Shown: positions 4,859-12,773 of the stretch, piece after piece
Layout: each line of letters starts with the position of its first letter
Position numbering within the stretch: position 1 is the stretch's first letter
Assembly: GCA_041739675.1 (NCBI GenBank)
Contig: JBGSNL010000040.1
Coordinates: 1-12,962 of the forward strand
Direction of reading: 5' to 3'
DNA: 12,962 nucleotides
DNA from: a bacterium
Lineage (GTDB): Bacteria; UBA10199; 2-02-FULL-44-16; DYJF01
Position numbers and translations under genes: made by a program
Notes under the pieces: model-generated
What the model was told of the DNA's origin: nothing
Databases searched by the model: none
Seen by the model: only the letters and a program-made list of their open reading frames with translations

Positions 4859-6103
4859 ATGTCGTTGATTGTTCAAAAATACGGCGGAACATCCGTTGCC
4901 ACGCCGGAAAAAATCAAGGCGGTGGCAAAACGCATCGCCGCGAGCAAAAAAAACGGCGACAAGATCGTCGTTGTCCTTTCGGCGATGGCCGGCGAGACGA
5001 ACCGACTGATCGATCTTGCAAAACAGGCAGGAGTGGAGCCCAACCCCAAACATCAAGACCTTTTGGTTGCCACGGGCGAGCAGGTTTCCGTTTCGCTCAT
5101 GGCAATCGCACTTGAAGAGCTTGGGATCAAAGCTGAGCCGCTTCTGGCGCATCAGGTCTCGATTCTCACCGACGGAAATCACGGAAGAGCGCGCATCCGC
5201 AATATCGACACCAAAAAATTGCTTCAAATAGTTGACGAGGGAACAGTCGCGGTCGTGGCAGGTTTTCAGGGTGTGACGGAAGAGGGTGCGATCACGACGA
5301 TCGGCCGCGGTGGCAGCGACGTCACTGCCGTTGCAATTGCCGCCGCTCTGTCTCAGGTCTCAGGTCTCAGGTCTCAGGTCTCGTGCGAGATTTTCACCGA
5401 CGTTGACGGAGTGTTCACCGCGGATCCCCGTATCTGCCAAAAATCCAGAAAACTTAGCCGAATATCCTATGAAGAGATGCTGGAGCTTGCCGACGCCGGC
5501 GCAAAGGTTTTACATACCCGCGCTGTGGAAATCGCCGCAAAATATAGTTTACCGGTTCACGTCCGCTCCACGTTCAACGACAGCGACGGAACATGGGTCG
5601 TGCCCGAGGAGGAGAAAATGGAAGACGCCCTGGTTTCAGGAATAACCTGCAACTTGAACGAAGCGAAGGTCGCGATCCGCCGTGTTCCGGACAAAGTAGG
5701 GATCACCGCGAAGATCTTCGAGCCCATCTCGAAGGCTCAAATTAACGTGGACATGATCCTCCAGAACGTATCCGCGGACGGCTACACCGATCTCACGTTC
5801 ACGGTGCCCAAAGAGGATCTGAAGCGGGCCATCGCCCTCACGGAAGTCGTAGCGCGCCAGGTTGAAGCGGGAAGGGTGGAGGCGGCCGGCGATATAGCGA
5901 AGATTTCGGTGGTTGGTCTGGGTATGCGAAGTCATGCGGGTATCGCGCACACGATGTTCGCAGCGCTTGCAAAAGAAGGAATCGGCGTCCAGATGATAGG
6001 CACCTCGGAAATCAAGGTGTCGATCGTCATCGAGATGAAATACGCGGAGCTCGCGGTGCGGACGCTGCATGACGCTTTTCATCTGGAAATGAAGAAAACT
6101 TAG
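4859..6103 (+). CDS. lysC: aspartate kinase (alpha subunit)
   Basis: VQKYGGTSV, VVLSAM, VAGFQG, GRGGSD, TDVDGV.TADP and GAKVLH motifs, followed by two ACT domains ending TSEIKVS; 414 aa. Confidence 0.97.
   Translation: MSLIVQKYGGTSVATPEKIKAVAKRIAASKKNGDKIVVVLSAMAGETNRLIDLAKQAGVEPNPKHQDLLVATGEQVSVSLMAIALEELGIKAEPLLAHQVSILTDGNHGRARIRNIDTKKLLQIVDEGTVAVVAGFQGVTEEGAITTIGRGGSDVTAVAIAAALSQVSGLRSQVSCEIFTDVDGVFTADPRICQKSRKLSRISYEEMLELADAGAKVLHTRAVEIAAKYSLPVHVRSTFNDSDGTWVVPEEEKMEDALVSGITCNLNEAKVAIRRVPDKVGITAKIFEPISKAQINVDMILQNVSADGYTDLTFTVPKEDLKRAIALTEVVARQVEAGRVEAAGDIAKISVVGLGMRSHAGIAHTMFAALAKEGIGVQMIGTSEIKVSIVIEMKYAELAVRTLHDAFHLEMKKT
5350..5382 (+). repeat. perfect heptamer tandem repeat (GTCTCAG)x4 + GTCTC inside lysC
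   Basis: Read directly: gtctcag gtctcag gtctcag gtctcag gtctc; encodes SQVSGLRSQVS. Confidence 0.95.
5618..6103 (+). CDS. probable aspartate kinase beta subunit from an internal in-frame start (161 aa, ACT domains only)
   Basis: AGGAGG at 5607-5612, 5 nt before the in-frame ATG (Met254, MEDALVSGI), at the position where alpha2beta2 aspartokinases start their beta chain. Confidence 0.6.
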   Translation: MEDALVSGITCNLNEAKVAIRRVPDKVGITAKIFEPISKAQINVDMILQNVSADGYTDLTFTVPKEDLKRAIALTEVVARQVEAGRVEAAGDIAKISVVGLGMRSHAGIAHTMFAALAKEGIGVQMIGTSEIKVSIVIEMKYAELAVRTLHDAFHLEMKKT

Positions 6104-6734: not shown

Positions 6735-9700
6735 ATGAAAAAGGCAATATTTATCCTCATTGCGGCATTTGCGCTCAGCGCATGCTTCATCGCGGCACCG
6801 GCGATGGCCATGGATGAGTGGAATCTTCCGCCTGTGCCGGTGGGATCATCCCCAAATCAGGTGGGAGGTCCTGGTTGGCCGTTCGTTTCGGATAAGCTGG
6901 CTACTGTTTTGAGAGCCGATGCGACAAACATCGGATTTTTCACACATCCCGCAGGCGCCGGCCCCGACTTCATAGGCGACACATTAGATGTGACGCTTCC
7001 GGACGGTACAACAATTACGATCACCATTGATGATATTATTGCGACGCCTGGACTTGAGCCTGAAAGAAGAATTGTCGTTTCCCCCACTGAAGAAGTTGCA
7101 AAAATGTTGGATACCGTTCTCGATGAATCAGTTTCGCGCGCAATGAGTCCAGCGCACGGCTTTTGCCCTGAGCATCTGAAATTCAAAAGACCTGGCGGGA
7201 CAAGCGTTGAATGGGCCTTTGAGTGCGATCTCTTTAGGCAGCCAAGGGGACTTGTCGAGGTGTACGATATGACGGATCGCCAAATCGTTGTGGGTGATGT
7301 GAAAAAAGACACGGGCGGCGAATTTGCGGCGCTCTTTACAGGAACCGGCGCCGATCCTCTTCTCAACGGCGTTTTAGGCACAGGGGACGCGAGAGTCCTT
7401 CCATATACGGTGAACACTCACCCGGCAACAGTCAAGGCAAACTACAATTTCGCATGGATGTGGAAGGGCATACCGGCTGCTCCATTCCCAAATCCGGAAA
7501 ATGTGGACGATCCTTACACAAGTGTCATCTCATACGGAATGGCCGATCTTCCAGATACAGCCGATGGCAAACCTCAAGGGGTTGTCACGGCAGCTTATGA
7601 CACATTCAATGTTTTGAAGTATGTGAAAATCACGAGGACAAAACCCACACCAGAAATAACAATAAAAGATAATTATGACATGTCAGTTCCAGCGGATGCC
7701 CTTGTGTATAAGGCTTTTTTCAATACCCACATCTCTCCGCTCATTTCATGGCGAAAATCGGCGGAGGACGGCACAGTCAAGTTGGCCGGTTATTCCACGT
7801 GGCAGCTTGGAAGCGATGAATATGATTTGAGTGACTGGACTCCGGGCTGTCTAAAAACAAGACCGATTTCTTGCCGCTCATTTGCCATGAGCTTTTTGAA
7901 ACTTGTGTGGAAGCAATTCATGGCGCTCGATTTAAACCCAATTGATGTAGTAACGCTGCAAAGCGGCGGAAAAACGCTTGTGGCGGTTGTCAGTCAGTCG
8001 CCGTACGGCGGTATGGATGAATGCATCAGGGGGCCGCTGGGCATTTGCGCTGGCCTTGCAGGCGGGCCTCACGACTTGCGCGATGCGCTCGCAGTGGGGC
8101 CGTCACATGCGCCCTTCAGTATGCCGCACAACGCCTTTTCCAAAGTGACTTTCTGGGAGCTCAAAGAACCATGGACAGGTGCTAAAAACCCGAACGCCAT
8201 CTTCGAACCGGTGAGCTTTGCGTTCATCGGGGCGAATGCGGTCGATGCGGACGTGCTTGTGGACGGAACAAAGCAGTATCTTGTAGTCACAACACGGGAG
8301 CCGATGGGAGATACGAGTGCCGGCGGACCTGGTCCGAAATACTACATCTACAAGATAGACCCCGAGCAACCAAACCCCGCAACGGCTGTGTATGCCAAGA
8401 ACTTTGCAACGCCTCCCTCTTTCATTCAAATACCCAATGCCATCGCCGCGGAATATTTTGAGGCGACACCGCCAAAGGGTTTTGTGCCGCACGGCATATC
8501 GACCGCTGATCTTGATGGAAACGGTTGTGCGGAAGCCATTGTCACATTCAGCGGCCGTGGTATAAAGCCGGTCGCTCCGCCTCCGTTCCAGAACCACGAC
8601 GGAGAAACCGTCTACTATTATAACGATACTCTCCCGTCTCCCTTGCAGATCTTTTCGCCCACCTTCATAGTTTATCCTGCCCGGCTTGACGGCTCGACAT
8701 GTAAGTTTGATACAGCCGCCAGAAAGAGTTTCTCGGCTCCCTTGGATAGTCCAAACAGGCAAATCACCACAGCGATTGCAGCCGAATTGAACGGCGACGG
8801 CAAGCTGGATATTCTGGCTGGTGATCTCTTGCCAAAGCAGATCCCCGGGGAGGCAAAGTATGCGGCATACGCGCTAGCATTCTATGACCCCATGGATGCT
8901 GTGACGGGAACGCTTGTCGACCGCTACGTGCGCGCCGGATTCCAGACAACCCAAGTGGATCCAAGAGCAGCCGCGGAAGGAGAGTACCTCCTCAAAGTGG
9001 CGCAGTCGGATGCCGAACGCATTGCCGGTGTTTCAAAACTTTCCAGTTCACATGGAAATATTGTTGCGGCCAACGGACTGCCCTTGATGCTCCCGATGTT
9101 CGGCTGTCCGACAAGAGCCAACGCCGACATCGAGTCCATATTTGAGTTTTACCGCTCGCTGGCGTTTAACAGAAGGGCTCATTACGCCGGCATCGAAAGC
9201 ATGGGAATGGACAGCAGCGGTCAAATTGCGCCAATGCGCTGCGCAGTGATGCCGGCAGGGCTTGCTTGTGCCGATGTCGTTCCTCCTGCTCTTCAGGATT
9301 GCTGCTGCGGAAAAATTTGCGCTCCCTTCTGTGAAAGCTCGGTTGCGATATGCAATGAGTATCGCTTGCTGTACCCCGATATCGTAACGGGCGGTGGTTA
9401 CGCGGATTTTATGGATGATGGCGAATGCAATCACTCCTCCGCACTTTCCGGATCCGATAAGAACCTCTTTGCCGAAGGGCCTCGCGGCGACGGCGGGGGC
9501 TCGGACGGCGGCGGAGGAAGCGACTTTGCCGACAGAGCCGACCGTGTCTATGACACTAAGGCCCCATACATAGCGTCAATAGGTCAGTTAAAGTGCGCTC
9601 AGACGGAGGAAAATCAAAATATCGCCAATCAAAATAACCAGAAAATGACTAACGCGGCTCGTTTGCCAACTCCCTATCTCACGAATGAGGAGACCGAGGC

Positions 9701-11141
9701 GTTGACGCAGTTACTTCTCGGTTTGGTTGATGACGAGGAAATCGTGACGGCACTCATCGACGGCTTCAATTCGATTTCACCAACGTCGGTTGAGGGACAA
9801 TTTGTTCTCCCCATGATCTACATATTGGAAAGCCTCACGTACACGCCTATCGTTAAGCCTTCTTCAGAGGTCAGATCACCTAGCCAACCCACTTCCTGGC
9901 TCTTTAAGACAATTGAAAAAATTGAAAGCCTGGGCATCGTAAGTGAGGCACATGCCGGCGGAATTGGAGCGGTTTACCGATTCCCCCGCGGGCAGGTTAT
10001 GCCCGGAAAACGGGAAATAGATCTGATTTTGAACGCGACGCCTATACCGCCTGTTACTGAAATCACCGAAGGCGCAGCAGACACAAAGGTTATCACCGTG
10101 AAATGCATGGGCGACATGGATGATTCTATTAAGGCCCACTTCAAGAAATTCAACGAGCAGATGTGCAGCATGGTACCCGGTCTCACGAACGCCAACGGCG
10201 AGTGCAACGACTCTCTGTGTCTGGCGGAGCTGGGCTACATGCACGTCGAGATCAACTCCCCCGGCGGTGCGGCTCCGAGCACGCCGGCAGCCGATCTTAA
10301 CTCGTTGTCTCTGTCCGCCGACATGACCGGCAACATTGGACAAGCAGCGTTCGCCCAATATGCCGGTATGAAGCCCTTCGACTTCACAACGCGCGAGATG
10401 CTGCCTTTGAAGGTCGATAACGTAACCACGACGATGCTGCTTCTGCCCGCCGCGGCGACTGCCGGCGGAAGGGCGATCACTGTTTCGCCCGACCTTATGA
10501 CTTCCGCCTCGGCCATTGAGCCCGCGCTACTCACGAACTATATGGAAGCGAGCGCGGATCCATCCCTTGGAACTCCAAGTGTCAGCGTGCTTCCGGCTGA
10601 GAACAAGTTCACGTTCAACAACGTCATATCATGGCAGACGAAAGCCGCTGAAGTTTCCGATGTCGCCAAGGCTGCGGGCGTCTTGGGAACAGCCGTCAAC
10701 GTCTTCGATATAAGATTGCAGCCCCTCCTGTGCTCTTTCACGGCGGTCTGCGAAGACTCGGACGCGCAGAAGGATGAAAACCAGTACGGAAAACTCTCGC
10801 GTGAGGGAATCTTGAAGAAAGCACAGGAGAACGCGGCGATGTGCCATGACGGCGTGTGCCAGGCCGACTTCTACAGAGCTATCGGCATCCCTCCGTATCA
10901 GAGTGACGGCTTCGTGCTGATGCAGGGCAAAGTTGCCAAAACAGGTATGGCGATGGAACCGCCCGATGTCGTGGCTTTCGGTTTCGGCGGAATCAACGTC
11001 ATGGCGGCGCAGGGCGGCGGATGCGGATGCAATGTGTCAGCGCTCCCGCCCAACATGATGTCGGTCATCGCGATGATACTTGTTGCATCTCTGGCGACGA
11101 CGGGATTCATTGTCGTGAGAGTGAGAGCGAGAAGAAAGTGA
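6735..11141 (+). CDS. large secreted/cell-surface protein (~1468 aa) with FG-GAP-like motifs, a Cys-rich block and a MYXO-CTERM-like C-terminal sorting signal
   Basis: Start reassigned from 6660 to ATG 6735 (RBS, signal peptide MKKAIFILIAAFALSACFIAAPAMA). Contains ADLDGNGCAEAIV (8505-8543) and AELNGDGKLDILAG (8781-8822), 9 Cys in 63 aa (9240-9428), a Gly/Asp linker, and the tail GGGCGC + hydrophobic helix + RVRARRK (11013-11138). Function is not recognisable. Confidence 0.85.
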   Translation: MKKAIFILIAAFALSACFIAAPAMAMDEWNLPPVPVGSSPNQVGGPGWPFVSDKLATVLRADATNIGFFTHPAGAGPDFIGDTLDVTLPDGTTITITIDDIIATPGLEPERRIVVSPTEEVAKMLDTVLDESVSRAMSPAHGFCPEHLKFKRPGGTSVEWAFECDLFRQPRGLVEVYDMTDRQIVVGDVKKDTGGEFAALFTGTGADPLLNGVLGTGDARVLPYTVNTHPATVKANYNFAWMWKGIPAAPFPNPENVDDPYTSVISYGMADLPDTADGKPQGVVTAAYDTFNVLKYVKITRTKPTPEITIKDNYDMSVPADALVYKAFFNTHISPLISWRKSAEDGTVKLAGYSTWQLGSDEYDLSDWTPGCLKTRPISCRSFAMSFLKLVWKQFMALDLNPIDVVTLQSGGKTLVAVVSQSPYGGMDECIRGPLGICAGLAGGPHDLRDALAVGPSHAPFSMPHNAFSKVTFWELKEPWTGAKNPNAIFEPVSFAFIGANAVDADVLVDGTKQYLVVTTREPMGDTSAGGPGPKYYIYKIDPEQPNPATAVYAKNFATPPSFIQIPNAIAAEYFEATPPKGFVPHGISTADLDGNGCAEAIVTFSGRGIKPVAPPPFQNHDGETVYYYNDTLPSPLQIFSPTFIVYPARLDGSTCKFDTAARKSFSAPLDSPNRQITTAIAAELNGDGKLDILAGDLLPKQIPGEAKYAAYALAFYDPMDAVTGTLVDRYVRAGFQTTQVDPRAAAEGEYLLKVAQSDAERIAGVSKLSSSHGNIVAANGLPLMLPMFGCPTRANADIESIFEFYRSLAFNRRAHYAGIESMGMDSSGQIAPMRCAVMPAGLACADVVPPALQDCCCGKICAPFCESSVAICNEYRLLYPDIVTGGGYADFMDDGECNHSSALSGSDKNLFAEGPRGDGGGSDGGGGSDFADRADRVYDTKAPYIASIGQLKCAQTEENQNIANQNNQKMTNAARLPTPYLTNEETEALTQLLLGLVDDEEIVTALIDGFNSISPTSVEGQFVLPMIYILESLTYTPIVKPSSEVRSPSQPTSWLFKTIEKIESLGIVSEAHAGGIGAVYRFPRGQVMPGKREIDLILNATPIPPVTEITEGAADTKVITVKCMGDMDDSIKAHFKKFNEQMCSMVPGLTNANGECNDSLCLAELGYMHVEINSPGGAAPSTPAADLNSLSLSADMTGNIGQAAFAQYAGMKPFDFTTREMLPLKVDNVTTTMLLLPAAATAGGRAITVSPDLMTSASAIEPALLTNYMEASADPSLGTPSVSVLPAENKFTFNNVISWQTKAAEVSDVAKAAGVLGTAVNVFDIRLQPLLCSFTAVCEDSDAQKDENQYGKLSREGILKKAQENAAMCHDGVCQADFYRAIGIPPYQSDGFVLMQGKVAKTGMAMEPPDVVAFGFGGINVMAAQGGGCGCNVSALPPNMMSVIAMILVASLATTGFIVVRVRARRK

Positions 11142-11172
11142 ATAGTGATCGGTAATCAGTGATCAGTAAAAG
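11138..11172 (+). repeat. degenerate heptamer tandem repeat (consensus GTRATCA)
   Basis: gtgaata gtgatcg gtaatca gtgatca gtaaaag, running from the stop codon into the terminator. Confidence 0.65.
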
Positions 11173-11198
11173 CCCCCGCGAAATGCGGGGGCTTTTTT
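11168..11198 (+). terminator. intrinsic terminator, potentially bidirectional
   Basis: AAAAGCCCCCGC-GAAAT-GCGGGGGCTTTT(TT): perfect 12-bp inverted repeat with a T6 tail on + and T4 on -. Confidence 0.9.
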
Positions 11199-11219
11199 GC
11201 GACCGCGGAGAGATACCAG

Positions 11220-11393
11220 AAAAGTGCAAGCGAAAGACTTAGGGGGCTGGTTTTGGAAAAGCGTCTCGGAGGCGATTTTAACAGCCGGGATGTGATTAAC
11301 AAAATCGCCGAGAGACGAGCGGCCGTTTTGGGTGGCCCGAAACGGACCGCGTCTTTTCCAAAAACAGTCCCTAAGTCTTTCACACGCACTTTT
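11220..11393. other. unassigned Y-shaped structured element (candidate ncRNA or palindromic DNA element)
   Basis: Nested inverted repeats 11220-27/11386-93, 11232-44/11369-81 and 11251-61/11353-63 enclose two hairpins, 11262-11317 and 11319-11350. The pairing is read directly; identity and strand are unknown. Confidence 0.7.
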
Positions 11394-11396
11394 GTT

Positions 11397-11424
11397 TTGA
11401 CTTTCCGCAATTTATCGCTAAAAT
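11397..11424 (+). promoter_or_regulatory. putative sigma70 promoter for the OmpA-family gene
   Basis: TTGACT (11397-11402), 16-nt spacer, TAAAAT (11419-11424); RBS GGAGG at 11456-11460 precedes ATG 11469. Confidence 0.55.
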
Positions 11425-11468: not shown

Positions 11469-12773
11469 ATGAAAAAAGCTAGAATGCTTATCATTGCTGC
11501 ATTTGCCGTCCTCATGGCAATGCCCGCAATGGCAAAACCCAAGACCGCCGATGTCGTGAATTTCAATCCCACATCGGACGGCGGCAAGTATATCACGCTT
11601 CATCAATCAAAAAGTTTGCACCAGTGGGGATTCAACGTCGGAATGTACACGGATTATGCGTATCATCCTTTGGAATACGCCGATCCTTCCGGCAACCGCC
11701 GCCGCGGAATCGTTGACAGTCTGCTCATGAGCCATTTCGACGCGGCAATCGGCTTCTTCGATTTCTGGTCTATGGGCATTGATATGCCTATGGCATGGTG
11801 GGAGGTCTTCTATAATCCCGCACTCAGCGCCGCGGCCGTCCAGAAGGAAAACGTGAAGATGAAAATGGGCGACCTGCGCGTCGAAATGAAATTCAAGTTC
11901 TTGGACATCGACAAATATCACTTTGGTCTCGCACTTGTTCCGTTCGTCTATATACCCACGGGTTCTTCCAGCTATTTTCTGGGCAACGGCATGTGGTCCC
12001 CGGGCGGAAAACTCGTAGTTGATGGCGATATCAAGAACCGCGTCTTCTTGTCCTTCAATGCCGGCTATCGCGCCTATGACAGAACCCAGTACGATCCCAA
12101 CACAACCGACGCAACGATCAACGACACAATAGAGCTGGGCCTGGGCGTAAACGTCCGCATCAACGATTCATGGGCGGTACTTGGCGAAGTTTATTCCGAA
12201 AGCGTTCTGTCGGCTTTCTTCAAGAACCAGCTTCAGAACCCCGCGGAGTTCACAGTGGCGGGGCGATGGACGCCGCAATCGAAGGCAAAAGGACTTGGCG
12301 TAACGTTAGGCGGAGGCAGGGGTCTGGATACCGGCATCGGTTCGCCGGACTTCCGCGTATTCGCGGGCATCAATTATCGTCCACCCAAGAAACCTCCGGC
12401 ACCTGTGCCGGTTGAGGTTGTGGCCGAGGAAAAGATCGTCATCACGCAGAAGATCCATTTCGAGTTCAACAAGTCTACGATCAGATCTATCTCATATCCG
12501 ATACTGGACGACGTCGCCTATCTGCTCCAGATCAACCCGCAGATCAGAAGGGTGAGGGTGGAAGGGCATACGGATTGGATCGGCTCCGATGCGTATAACC
12601 AGAAACTTTCCGAGCGCAGGGCAGCTTCCGTGCGCGATTACCTGATAGGCAAGGGCATTGCGTCAGACAGGCTCATCGCCATAGGCTACGGCGAAGCAAG
12701 GCCCATCGCGGACAACAACACAACGCAGGGCCGCGCAAGGAACCGCCGCACAGAATTCACAGTGCTTGAATAG
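11469..12773 (+). CDS. OmpA-family outer membrane protein: signal peptide, large predicted beta-barrel, Pro-rich linker, C-terminal OmpA/MotB peptidoglycan-binding domain
   Basis: Signal MKKARMLIIAAFAVLMAMPAMA; alternating amphipathic strands ending DFRVFAGINY; linker RPPKKPPAPVP; IHFEFNKS, VEGHTD, YNQKLSERRA, GYGEARP and GRARNRRTEF motifs. Confidence 0.93.
   Translation: MKKARMLIIAAFAVLMAMPAMAKPKTADVVNFNPTSDGGKYITLHQSKSLHQWGFNVGMYTDYAYHPLEYADPSGNRRRGIVDSLLMSHFDAAIGFFDFWSMGIDMPMAWWEVFYNPALSAAAVQKENVKMKMGDLRVEMKFKFLDIDKYHFGLALVPFVYIPTGSSSYFLGNGMWSPGGKLVVDGDIKNRVFLSFNAGYRAYDRTQYDPNTTDATINDTIELGLGVNVRINDSWAVLGEVYSESVLSAFFKNQLQNPAEFTVAGRWTPQSKAKGLGVTLGGGRGLDTGIGSPDFRVFAGINYRPPKKPPAPVPVEVVAEEKIVITQKIHFEFNKSTIRSISYPILDDVAYLLQINPQIRRVRVEGHTDWIGSDAYNQKLSERRAASVRDYLIGKGIASDRLIAIGYGEARPIADNNTTQGRARNRRTEFTVLE

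What the first reader, a model, noticed from the sequence alone, without database searches (positions are those of the whole stretch)
11220..11393. Unannotated ~174-nt Y-shaped (three-way-junction) element between the terminator and the ompA promoter
Seen: an interrupted closing stem of about 40 nt per arm: AAAAGTGC/GCACTTTT (8 bp), GAAAGACTTAGGG/CCCTAAGTCTTTC (13 bp), CTG/CAG, and TTTTGGAAAAG/CTTTTCCAAAA (11 bp). It branches almost without spacers into hairpin 1 (CGTCTC/GAGACG plus GGCGATTTT/AAAATCGCC around a 21-nt loop region, 11262-11317) and hairpin 2 (GCGG/CCGC plus CCGTTTTGGG/CCCGAAACGG, 11319-11350). It starts 22 nt after the terminator and ends 3 nt before a TTGACT -35 box. G-U-compatible mismatches exist on both strands (11245/11368 and 11329/11339 on +; 11228/11385 and 11231/11382 on -), so the strand is unresolved. 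A minus-strand transcript could end at the bidirectional terminator. I cannot match it to tRNA, SRP, 6S, tmRNA, RNase P or a riboswitch I know. Inference: a novel structured ncRNA, or a non-autonomous palindromic DNA element (MITE/REPIN-like) or cruciform that could affect ompA transcription.
Basis: partly seen in the sequence, partly recalled or inferred. Interest (0 to 1): 0.8.

Follow-up and report, generated by a model that had tools for sequence, protein, structure and literature searches.

The report
Y-shaped mobile repeat with kissing loops
The Y-shaped stretch before the ompA-like gene is one of about 25 scattered copies of an apparently uncatalogued non-coding repeat that is present or absent at this spot in related strains; it likely spreads as folded single-stranded DNA moved by an enzyme not yet found, and its two arms are predicted to touch tip to tip, which is unusual for such repeats.

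Summary
The structure is real: stems as described, z about -10 on both strands, no Rfam match. It is not a single-locus RNA. The genome holds 24-26 copies; 27 of 93 class genomes have it; no neighbour gene recurs. Contigs of related strains in two runs lack 11199-11387, and the same-genus genome keeps the ompA promoter without it. Over 83 distinct copies 96% of stem cells pair, and unpaired core bases are nearly invariant on the + strand. The two terminal loops are complementary and co-vary. A GTAG-type tag sits at the stem foot, close pairs always have their tags inside (18 of 18), there is no direct target duplication here, and outer arms are copy-specific. Best reading: a GTAG-REP/REPIN-like non-autonomous element with a branched head; the mover is unidentified (0 of 84 Y1-transposase loci flanked). 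The scan already reported this family from another contig (e1-943688). New here: empty allele, strand, loop-loop covariation, inverted flank copy.

The parts
11168..11198 (+). Intrinsic terminator hairpin of the upstream gene; host DNA, not part of the element
   Evidence: sequence; kept in the empty allele
11199..11387 (+). Whole segment absent from the empty allele (189 nt; one T stands in its place)
   Evidence: joint 11198 to 11388 in runs X2 and X3, two studies
11205..11225 (+). Degenerate inverted copy of the host flank 11388-11408 (15 of 21 complementary)
   Evidence: 5 of 20000 random intergenic segments match as well
11226..11238 (+). Copy-specific outer arm (P0, left); pairs with 11375-11387
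11239..11242 (+). Tag at the foot of the stem: TTAG here, GTAG in sister copies on C81 and C50
11242..11261 (+). P1 left arm; pairs with 11353-11371. Length fixed at about 19-20 nt across the family, sequence free
11262..11317 (+). Hairpin 1 (P2): 6 bp, GGA/GA internal loop (11268-70, 11310-11), 9 bp, 21-nt loop 11280-11300 with invariant C11282 and near-invariant G11287
11284..11288 (+). Loop-2 segment predicted to pair with loop 3; in this subfamily the register is shifted by one
   Evidence: prediction from covariation
11319..11350 (+). Hairpin 2 (P3): 4 bp, bulged A11346, 10 bp, loop TGG 11333-11335; junction bases A11318 and GT 11351-52 nearly invariant
11353..11387 (+). P1 and P0 right arms
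11388..11424 (+). Host flank with predicted sigma-70 promoter of the OmpA-domain gene (-35 at 11397, -10 at 11419); not part of the element
   Evidence: conserved in G001 without the element

Best explanation
It is one copy of a dispersed, non-coding repeat family that is present or absent at orthologous sites, and it likely spreads as a folded single DNA strand handled in trans by a RAYT-like HUH (Y1) transposase, as GTAG-tagged REPs and REPINs are thought to. Shown: many copies, empty alleles, a conserved Y fold on one strand, a GT(A/G)G-like tag at the foot of a 19-20 nt stem, tags-inside pairs, no direct target duplication at this site, insertion between genes and in frame within genes. 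Inferred: (1) when the + strand is transiently single (replication fork, transcription) it folds into a three-way junction whose arms lie side by side and kiss through their loops; (2) this shape, not the stem sequence, is what the moving enzyme recognises, with the tag as guide; (3) after or during insertion, fold-back copying (template switching) homogenises the arms and extends them into the flank, which gives each copy its own outer stem and left an inverted copy of the ompA promoter flank here; (4) the copy beside ompA is a tolerated passenger between terminator and promoter. Odds: mobile repeat about 0.9; DNA rather than RNA intermediate about 0.7; Y1/RAYT-type mover about 0.45.
For: Copies: 26 by HMM, 25 at E<1e-3, 24 by covariance model. 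Empty allele at this locus in runs X2 and X3 (X3 record 18: 438 nt upstream at about 92% identity, then the joint), left arm and right flank present in X8; G001 lacks it here and has copies where G000 has none. No shared mobile or regulatory neighbour among 242 and 301 flanking ORFs. Orientation to genes is mixed: 4 copies antisense between co-directional genes, one antisense in frame in the mutL linker, one in frame in a radical-SAM gene. Tag: GT(A/G)G in 17 of 24 readable G000 copies (counted by eye) and 23 of 83 family copies; GT[AG]G at a hairpin foot defines canonical REPs (PMC6006769, passages). Pairs within 300 nt: 18 of 18 distinct pairs have tags inside (counted); such TT dimers are frequent in GTAG families (PMC3733652, passages). 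Two RAYT-like genes are in the genome (below the NCBIfam cut-off). Outer arms pair better with their own partner than with any other copy's in 51 of 75; some copies have the outer loop erased into a perfect stem, as template switching would do (PMC8604942, abstract). G-U share of predicted pairs is low, 169 of 4659, against 65 of 843 in tRNAs and 7 of 61 in 6S.
Against: No mover found: 0 of 84 Y1-transposase loci (about 1.5 kb each side, many cut by contig ends; 26 genomes queried) carry the element or its relatives. Y1 genes are as common in genomes without it (23 of 27 against 55 of 66, p=1.0), and two copy-rich genomes, G001 (83% complete) and G082, show no Y1 match. The tag is degenerate in 60 of 83 copies, this one included. 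No clear strand-skew bias (9 against 17, p=0.17). The G-U argument is weak: a known DNA hairpin family in the same genome has 27 of 296. Loop-loop pairing, tandem G-A and GUA/GAAA-like loops are also RNA hallmarks (own knowledge). The joint has only 28 letters on its short side, the strains are about 8% diverged, and a deletion between 2-nt GC ends cannot be excluded. In family f6 some copies sit inside IS5-like ends with TTAA flanks.
Confidence: 0.55

Rival explanations
1. A mobile RNA: the + strand is transcribed, folds with a kissing-loop tertiary structure and is copied back into the genome by a reverse transcriptase in trans (a bacterial SINE or retrozyme-like element), possibly with catalytic activity of its own.
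For: One-strand asymmetry: G-T 90 against A-C 28 in paired columns; + strand more stable in 70 of 80 copies as RNA; near-invariant unpaired bases; loop-loop covariation; no direct target duplication.
Against: No RT match in the own genome and no association with RT (9 of 27 against 27 of 66, p=0.64); 0 of 20 RT loci carry it; + strand is also more stable as DNA in 75 of 80; no evident shared promoter in the 5' flanks (read by eye); the window copy starts just after a terminator; no Rfam family, hammerheads included.
Confidence: 0.15
2. Passenger of DDE-type MITEs: the Y core is cargo inside terminal inverted repeats recognised by an IS5/IS1182-type transposase.
For: In G031 and G038 many copies are bracketed by a 15-nt IS5-like end with TTAA-type flanks; one such pair has lost its core and another brackets a different hairpin. 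The IS5 likeness is recalled, not tested.
Against: The window copy and the other G000 copies lack these ends and a direct duplication; no association with DUF772 (7 of 27 against 11 of 66, p=0.39); 0 of 20 DUF772 loci carry the Y; a DDE enzyme would not explain conservation of the inner fold.
Confidence: 0.1
3. A host-useful cis element (protein-binding site, mRNA stabiliser, insulator or promoter module) kept at many loci by selection; at this locus it would tune ompA expression.
For: The 3' neighbour is co-oriented in 13 of 19 intergenic G000 copies with a 3' neighbour; 45 of 83 copies have a 5-of-6 TATAAT-like hexamer in loop 2; at one site shared with G001 the outer arms stay paired after divergence.
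Against: Absent at this locus in related strains and in G001 while the promoter is kept; neighbours unrelated; antisense and in-gene copies; other palindromes occupy the same junctions in G001; 66 of 93 class genomes show no match.
Confidence: 0.1
4. Moved or amplified by a small GIY-YIG single-strand nuclease (Ssn type), as proposed for CGTC/SRM repeats.
For: An Ssn-like ORF and about 10 CGTC-type hairpins are in the genome (Ssn likeness by eye); a 105-aa protein with a weak GIY-YIG match (E 0.041) lies next to the C81 copy.
Against: That protein matches only 2 of 93 genomes and its G031 relative has no Y nearby; the Y does not have the short SRM layout (PMC11893778, passages; compared by eye).
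Confidence: 0.05

Closest known systems
GTAG-tagged REPs, REPINs and BIMEs with RAYT/TnpA(REP) (PMC3733652, PMC6006769, PMC3116915; passages read)
   Same: GT(A/G)G-like tag at a stem foot, dispersed extragenic copies, inverted dimers (tags inside), in-frame copies in genes including a DNA-repair gene, patchy distribution, RAYT-like genes in the genome.
   Different: 140-190 nt against 21-65 nt; three-way junction with predicted loop-loop pairing instead of a simple hairpin; tag degenerate in most copies; no RAYT gene flanked by it in 84 loci; copy-specific outer arms.
Rickettsia palindromic elements, about 150 bp (PMC10969869, passages)
   Same: Size, palindromic fold, in-frame insertion into unrelated genes, mover unknown.
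   Different: Other lineage and sequence; most Y copies are intergenic; no loop-loop contact mentioned in the passages read. Sequences were not compared.
Bacterial MITEs (PMC10969869, passages)
   Same: Short, non-coding, multi-copy, stable fold.
   Different: No shared terminal inverted repeat and no direct target duplication in G000; the conserved part is the inside, the ends vary.
Multicopy sequence features of Geobacter (PMC2996986, passages)
   Same: Several palindromic and short-repeat families clustering in the same intergenic regions, some in frame in genes.
   Different: Their sequences are in supplements that I did not open, so identity with any of them is untested.
Three-way-junction RNAs with loop-loop contacts (purine riboswitch, hammerhead, SRP Alu domain; recalled)
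   Same: Overall topology.
   Different: No Rfam match; junction has only A and GU(A/C) unpaired, no hammerhead core; no gene-context bias.

Membership tests
GTAG REP / REPIN | GT[AG]G tetranucleotide at the 5' foot of the stem | tested here: inconclusive
   17 of 24 G000 copies, 23 of 83 overall; TTAG in this copy
GTAG REP / REPIN | Short simple hairpin, 21-65 nt | tested here: not met
   140-190 nt branched fold
GTAG REP / REPIN | Inverted dimers | tested here: met
   18 of 18 close pairs inverted with tags inside; this copy is a singlet
GTAG REP / REPIN | Cognate RAYT gene flanked by the repeat (REPtron) | tested here: not met
   0 of 84 Y1 loci; draft genomes, so not proof of absence
GTAG REP / REPIN | Binding and cleavage of the single strand by RAYT | not testable with these tools
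   needs biochemistry
MITE (DDE type) | Conserved terminal inverted repeats shared by copies | tested here: not met
   outer arms copy-specific in 51 of 75; shared ends only in a subset of G031/G038 copies
MITE (DDE type) | Direct target-site duplication | tested here: not met
   none at this locus against the empty allele; TTAA flanks in some family f6 copies
Known Rfam ncRNA (6S, SRP, tRNA, riboswitch, ribozyme) | Match to a covariance model at gathering score | tested here: not met
   window: none on the element; 20 other loci: 4 weak matches, all far below gathering; the genome's 6S gene is on C84
Hammerhead ribozyme | CUGANGA and GAAA core at the junction (motif recalled) | tested here: not met
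   junction residues are A and GU(A/C)
Retroelement (SINE/retron-like) | Linked or co-occurring reverse transcriptase | tested here: not met
Retroelement or ncRNA | Discrete transcript | not testable with these tools
   no RNA holder listed
CGTC REP / Ssn-related motif | CGTC-tagged short hairpin flanking an ssn gene | tested here: not met
   the CGTC in the Y is paired inside P2; no Y beside GIY-YIG-like genes except one weak case

The most novel reading that the evidence does not exclude
A new kind of shape-encoded mobile element: a family that keeps a riboswitch-like tertiary fold (three-way junction plus kissing loops) while its stem sequences turn over freely, inserts without direct target duplication by building an inverted copy of its target flank, and is moved by an enzyme class, or by its own RNA or DNA catalysis, not yet linked to bacterial repeats. 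It would head a superfamily with the related branched and rod-shaped repeats in the same genome and reach beyond this class.
Probability: 0.2. Interest if true: 0.85.

Novelty: new variant of a known kind. Interest (0 to 1): 0.55.

Why it matters
How small palindromic repeats spread, and why they keep their structure, is a long-standing open question. This family separates fold from sequence unusually well: all 42 modelled pairs show compensatory change while about a dozen unpaired bases hardly vary, and the loop-loop covariation cannot be made by arm homogenisation. That gives sharp mutants for binding, cleavage or self-cleavage tests. It also warns that strong covariation among dispersed copies can look like a new ncRNA. 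For ompA itself it probably matters little.

Tried and rejected
Rfam: nothing on the element. 6S RNA: the real gene is on C84. Viral contigs: 20 pattern matches, 0 confirmed by the model. Plasmids and phages, blastn: no match. First metagenome pattern: 0; looser pattern: 19 loci, 16 with a model hit. Search for a mover: Y1, RT, DUF772, IS110 (115; 30 loci, one weak hit at E 0.71), GIY-YIG-like neighbour: none flanked, none associated (for the first three; IS110 in 4 of 27 genomes with the Y against 14 of 66 without, counted). Expression: no RNA holder listed, so untested. K-turn: rejected, the bulge next to the tandem G-A is one base, not three (motif recalled). Minus-10 mimic in loop 2: only 45 of 83 copies reach 5 of 6. 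Fixed-register test of the kissing pairs was weaker than the register-free test: only one of eight positions beat its permutation clearly (1 of 5000), others were invariant or hurt by alignment slips. Replichore bias: none shown. Empty-site checks in G001: radical-SAM flank not found; C71 junction uninformative, C18 junction holds another repeat, C48 holds a core-deleted remnant, C6 is shared. mutL comparison: only G000 and G001 were printed before the script failed. Literature: searches listed no description of this family; subscription papers and supplements were not seen.

Full report
OBSERVATION. The 174 nt fold far better than shuffles on both strands and as DNA (z -9.85, -11.18, -10.44; 0 of 200 each). 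The element lies between a terminator (11168-11198) and a predicted sigma-70 promoter (11397-11424) of an OmpA-domain gene. Rfam has nothing on it and the genome's 6S gene is elsewhere.

IT IS A DISPERSED FAMILY. BLAST and HMM searches of the own genome (1.91 Mb, 88 contigs) give three close sisters (C81, C72, C50; 93-94% identical) and a larger second subfamily: 26 copies (listed), 25 at E<1e-3, 24 by covariance model. The model R1 (built from 36 hand-picked copies) finds the family in 27 of 93 genomes of the class, G000 included, with 1 to 31 matches; 31 is the scoring cap. A strict pattern over 185,579 species genomes returned 10 stretches, titled as Deltaproteobacteria, Bdellovibrio or unnamed-bacterium MAGs. 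A looser pattern over metagenomes gave 19 loci, 16 with a model hit; five score only 46-59 bits, and three of them lie in 68% GC DNA of unknown origin, so the family may reach other lineages. Viral contigs, phages and plasmids gave nothing. Flanking ORFs share no mobile or regulatory gene.

IT COMES AND GOES. Contigs from runs X2 and X3 (two studies) join 11198 to 11388 with one T between, skipping 189 nt; X3 record 18 aligns for 438 nt upstream with 35 differences, so it is the orthologous locus in a related strain. X8 has the left arm and the right flank on two contigs. Limits: 28 letters on the short side, about 8% divergence, GC at both ends of the skipped part, so deletion is possible. 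The same-genus genome G001 keeps the promoter and ribosome site but has other palindromes in this gap, and has Y copies at sites where G000 has none. One site is shared (C6) and one holds a core-deleted remnant whose outer arms still pair (C48). In G000 the copies point either way relative to genes; four are antisense between co-directional genes; one reads in frame, antisense, in the mutL linker; one in frame in a radical-SAM gene; one supplies or abuts the start of a prepilin-like gene.

ANATOMY. On the model-fitted alignment of 83 distinct copies 96.2% of 3384 cells pair, all 42 pairs have two-sided changes, and sliding the partners drops pairing to 39-48%. The alignment leans to the model, but the MAFFT alignment gave 40 of 42. 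Stem lengths are fixed (P1 left arm 19-20 nt in 76 of 82). Unpaired bases are nearly invariant on the + strand: the T in P2, GGA/GA, the loop C (83 of 83) and G (80 of 83), junction A and G. G-T outnumbers A-C 90 to 28 and the + strand is the more stable in 70 of 80 copies as RNA and 75 of 80 as DNA. So the + strand is the folded one; this does not tell RNA from DNA. Stem covariation alone proves little, because template switching homogenises inverted-repeat arms without selection (PMC8604942, abstract and outline).

LOOP-LOOP CONTACT (predicted). The two terminal loops are complementary: ATGG with CCGT in one subfamily, CGG with YCG in the other, with variants such as ATGC/GCGT, TGG/CCA, GGG/CCC and GCC/GGC in separate branches of the tree. 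A register-free score is higher with the own partner than with permuted partners: 7.84 against 7.06 +/- 0.20 over 45 distinct loop pairs (0 of 10000); within subfamilies 19 and 43 of 10000; a control segment of the same loop shows no excess (4617 of 5000). Against: relatedness is not fully controlled, I chose the segment after seeing the pattern, the fixed-register test was weaker, several copies keep only two C-G pairs, and the window's subfamily (loop TGG) needs a one-base shift. Template switching cannot create this signal, so if real it means selection on a tertiary fold.

ENDS. A GT(A/G)G-like tag stands at the foot of P1: 17 of 24 readable G000 copies (by eye), 23 of 83 overall; here TTAG. 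Of 18 distinct pairs within 300 nt (duplicates of the same pair removed), all are inverted with the tags inside; one same-strand pair lies 406 nt apart. Outside the tag the stem goes on for a median 19 nt, and in 51 of 75 copies the left flank fits its own right flank better than any other copy's. At this locus 11205-11225 is complementary at 15 of 21 positions to host DNA 11388-11408, which the empty allele keeps; 5 of 20000 random intergenic segments do as well. There is no direct duplication. In G031 and G038 some copies sit inside a shared 15-nt end with TTAA flanks that also brackets other cargo.

MOVER NOT FOUND. G000 has two RAYT-like genes below the NCBIfam cut-off. None of 84 Y1 loci, 20 RT loci, 20 DUF772 loci or 30 IS110 loci (one weak hit, E 0.71) carries the element, and presence does not track Y1, RT or DUF772 across 93 genomes (kin are not independent). 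An IS110 sits inside the P1 arm of a Y at one orthologous site in three metagenome contigs; I read it as a parasite of the repeat, a single event.

MECHANISM. Best supported: a non-autonomous, single-strand-folding DNA repeat of the GTAG-REP/REPIN kind with a branched head, recognised by shape and tag and moved in trans, most likely by a Y1 HUH enzyme; arms are then homogenised and extended by fold-back copying. Mobility is shown by polymorphism; the folded strand and core are shown by conservation; the kiss, the DNA intermediate, the enzyme and the origin of the outer arms are inferred. Rivals: RNA-based spread (0.15), DDE-MITE cargo (0.1), host cis element (0.1), Ssn-type nuclease (0.05).

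KNOWN AND NEW. It works like a REP/REPIN (PMC3733652, PMC6006769, PMC3116915; passages read) but fails two membership tests (size and shape; no REPtron), so I do not file it as a REP. It also recalls Rickettsia palindromic elements and MITEs (PMC10969869, passages), Geobacter multicopy features (PMC2996986, passages) and SRM repeats (PMC11893778, passages). Nine library searches listed no description of this family; supplements of PMC3733652 and PMC2996986, which list repeat sequences, were not opened and could bear on novelty. The scan noted the family before on contig C6 (e1-943688) and a branched repeat with a possible kissing loop in another phylum (e1-9532499, seen, after my own test; homology untested).

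VERDICT. Real, multi-copy, polymorphic, uncatalogued as far as searched; new variant of a known kind; interest 0.55, held down by the missing mover, the lack of expression data and the earlier report, and raised by the predicted tertiary contact.

Noticed in passing
window 6735-11141 and 11469-12773: The upstream 1468-aa gene ends in a GGGCGC + hydrophobic helix + basic tail (MYXO-CTERM-like, recalled), and the 'ompA' gene's best NCBIfam match is TraB (208 bits, cut-off 700): a possible TraA/TraB-like pair.
   Followed up: partly
window 11143-11167; 5152-5168; 5353-5383: Short heptamer runs (GTGATCA-type and TCAGGTC-type); the first recurs at many places in this genome and in relatives.
   Followed up: no
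G000 C69:17476, C23:3348, C25:4379, C33:34011, C58:14865, C65; C7:171, C81:17938, C87:155; C54, C6:61067, C75: Further repeat families: a distant Y with GCC/GGC loop complementarity, a long rod rich in tandem G-A loops, and a shorter form; several share the GTA/GAAA end loop and pair 5'-to-5' with Y copies or with a 225-bp foldback repeat.
   Followed up: partly
L209, L210, L216 (about 600-1990): An intact IS110 transposase gene inserted into the P1 left arm of a Y copy, at one orthologous site in three contigs.
   Followed up: partly
L073:1080-5011 (G001); L176 (G000 C81:15735-18144): Repeat pairs with tags inside that enclose cargo genes: 3.7 kb of unknown genes absent from the G000 site; 2 kb with a weak GIY-YIG-like 105-aa ORF. 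Possible composite elements.
   Followed up: partly
G000 C6:12380-12640 against L074:1040-1300: Element and both flanks are about 97% identical between G000 and G001, whereas the surrounding 2.3 kb average 78%: recent transfer, conversion or a binning effect.
   Followed up: no
G000 C33:38564-38851 and ten CGTC-type hairpins: A 95-aa GIY-YIG-motif ORF resembling Ssn nucleases (by eye) and a CGTC/SRM-like hairpin family in the same genome.
   Followed up: no
L170 (G001 mutL linker), L064, L244: G001 carries different palindromic repeats at the same junctions and in the same mutL linker where G000 carries the Y: sites hit repeatedly.
   Followed up: partly
L218, L237, L226: In family f6 one 15-nt terminal repeat with TTAA flanks brackets a Y, a core-less remnant or CGTC-type hairpins; one Y has another hairpin inserted in loop 3.
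   Followed up: partly
G000 whole genome: ARAGORN found 35 tRNA genes and no tmRNA gene in this 94.6% complete assembly.
   Followed up: no
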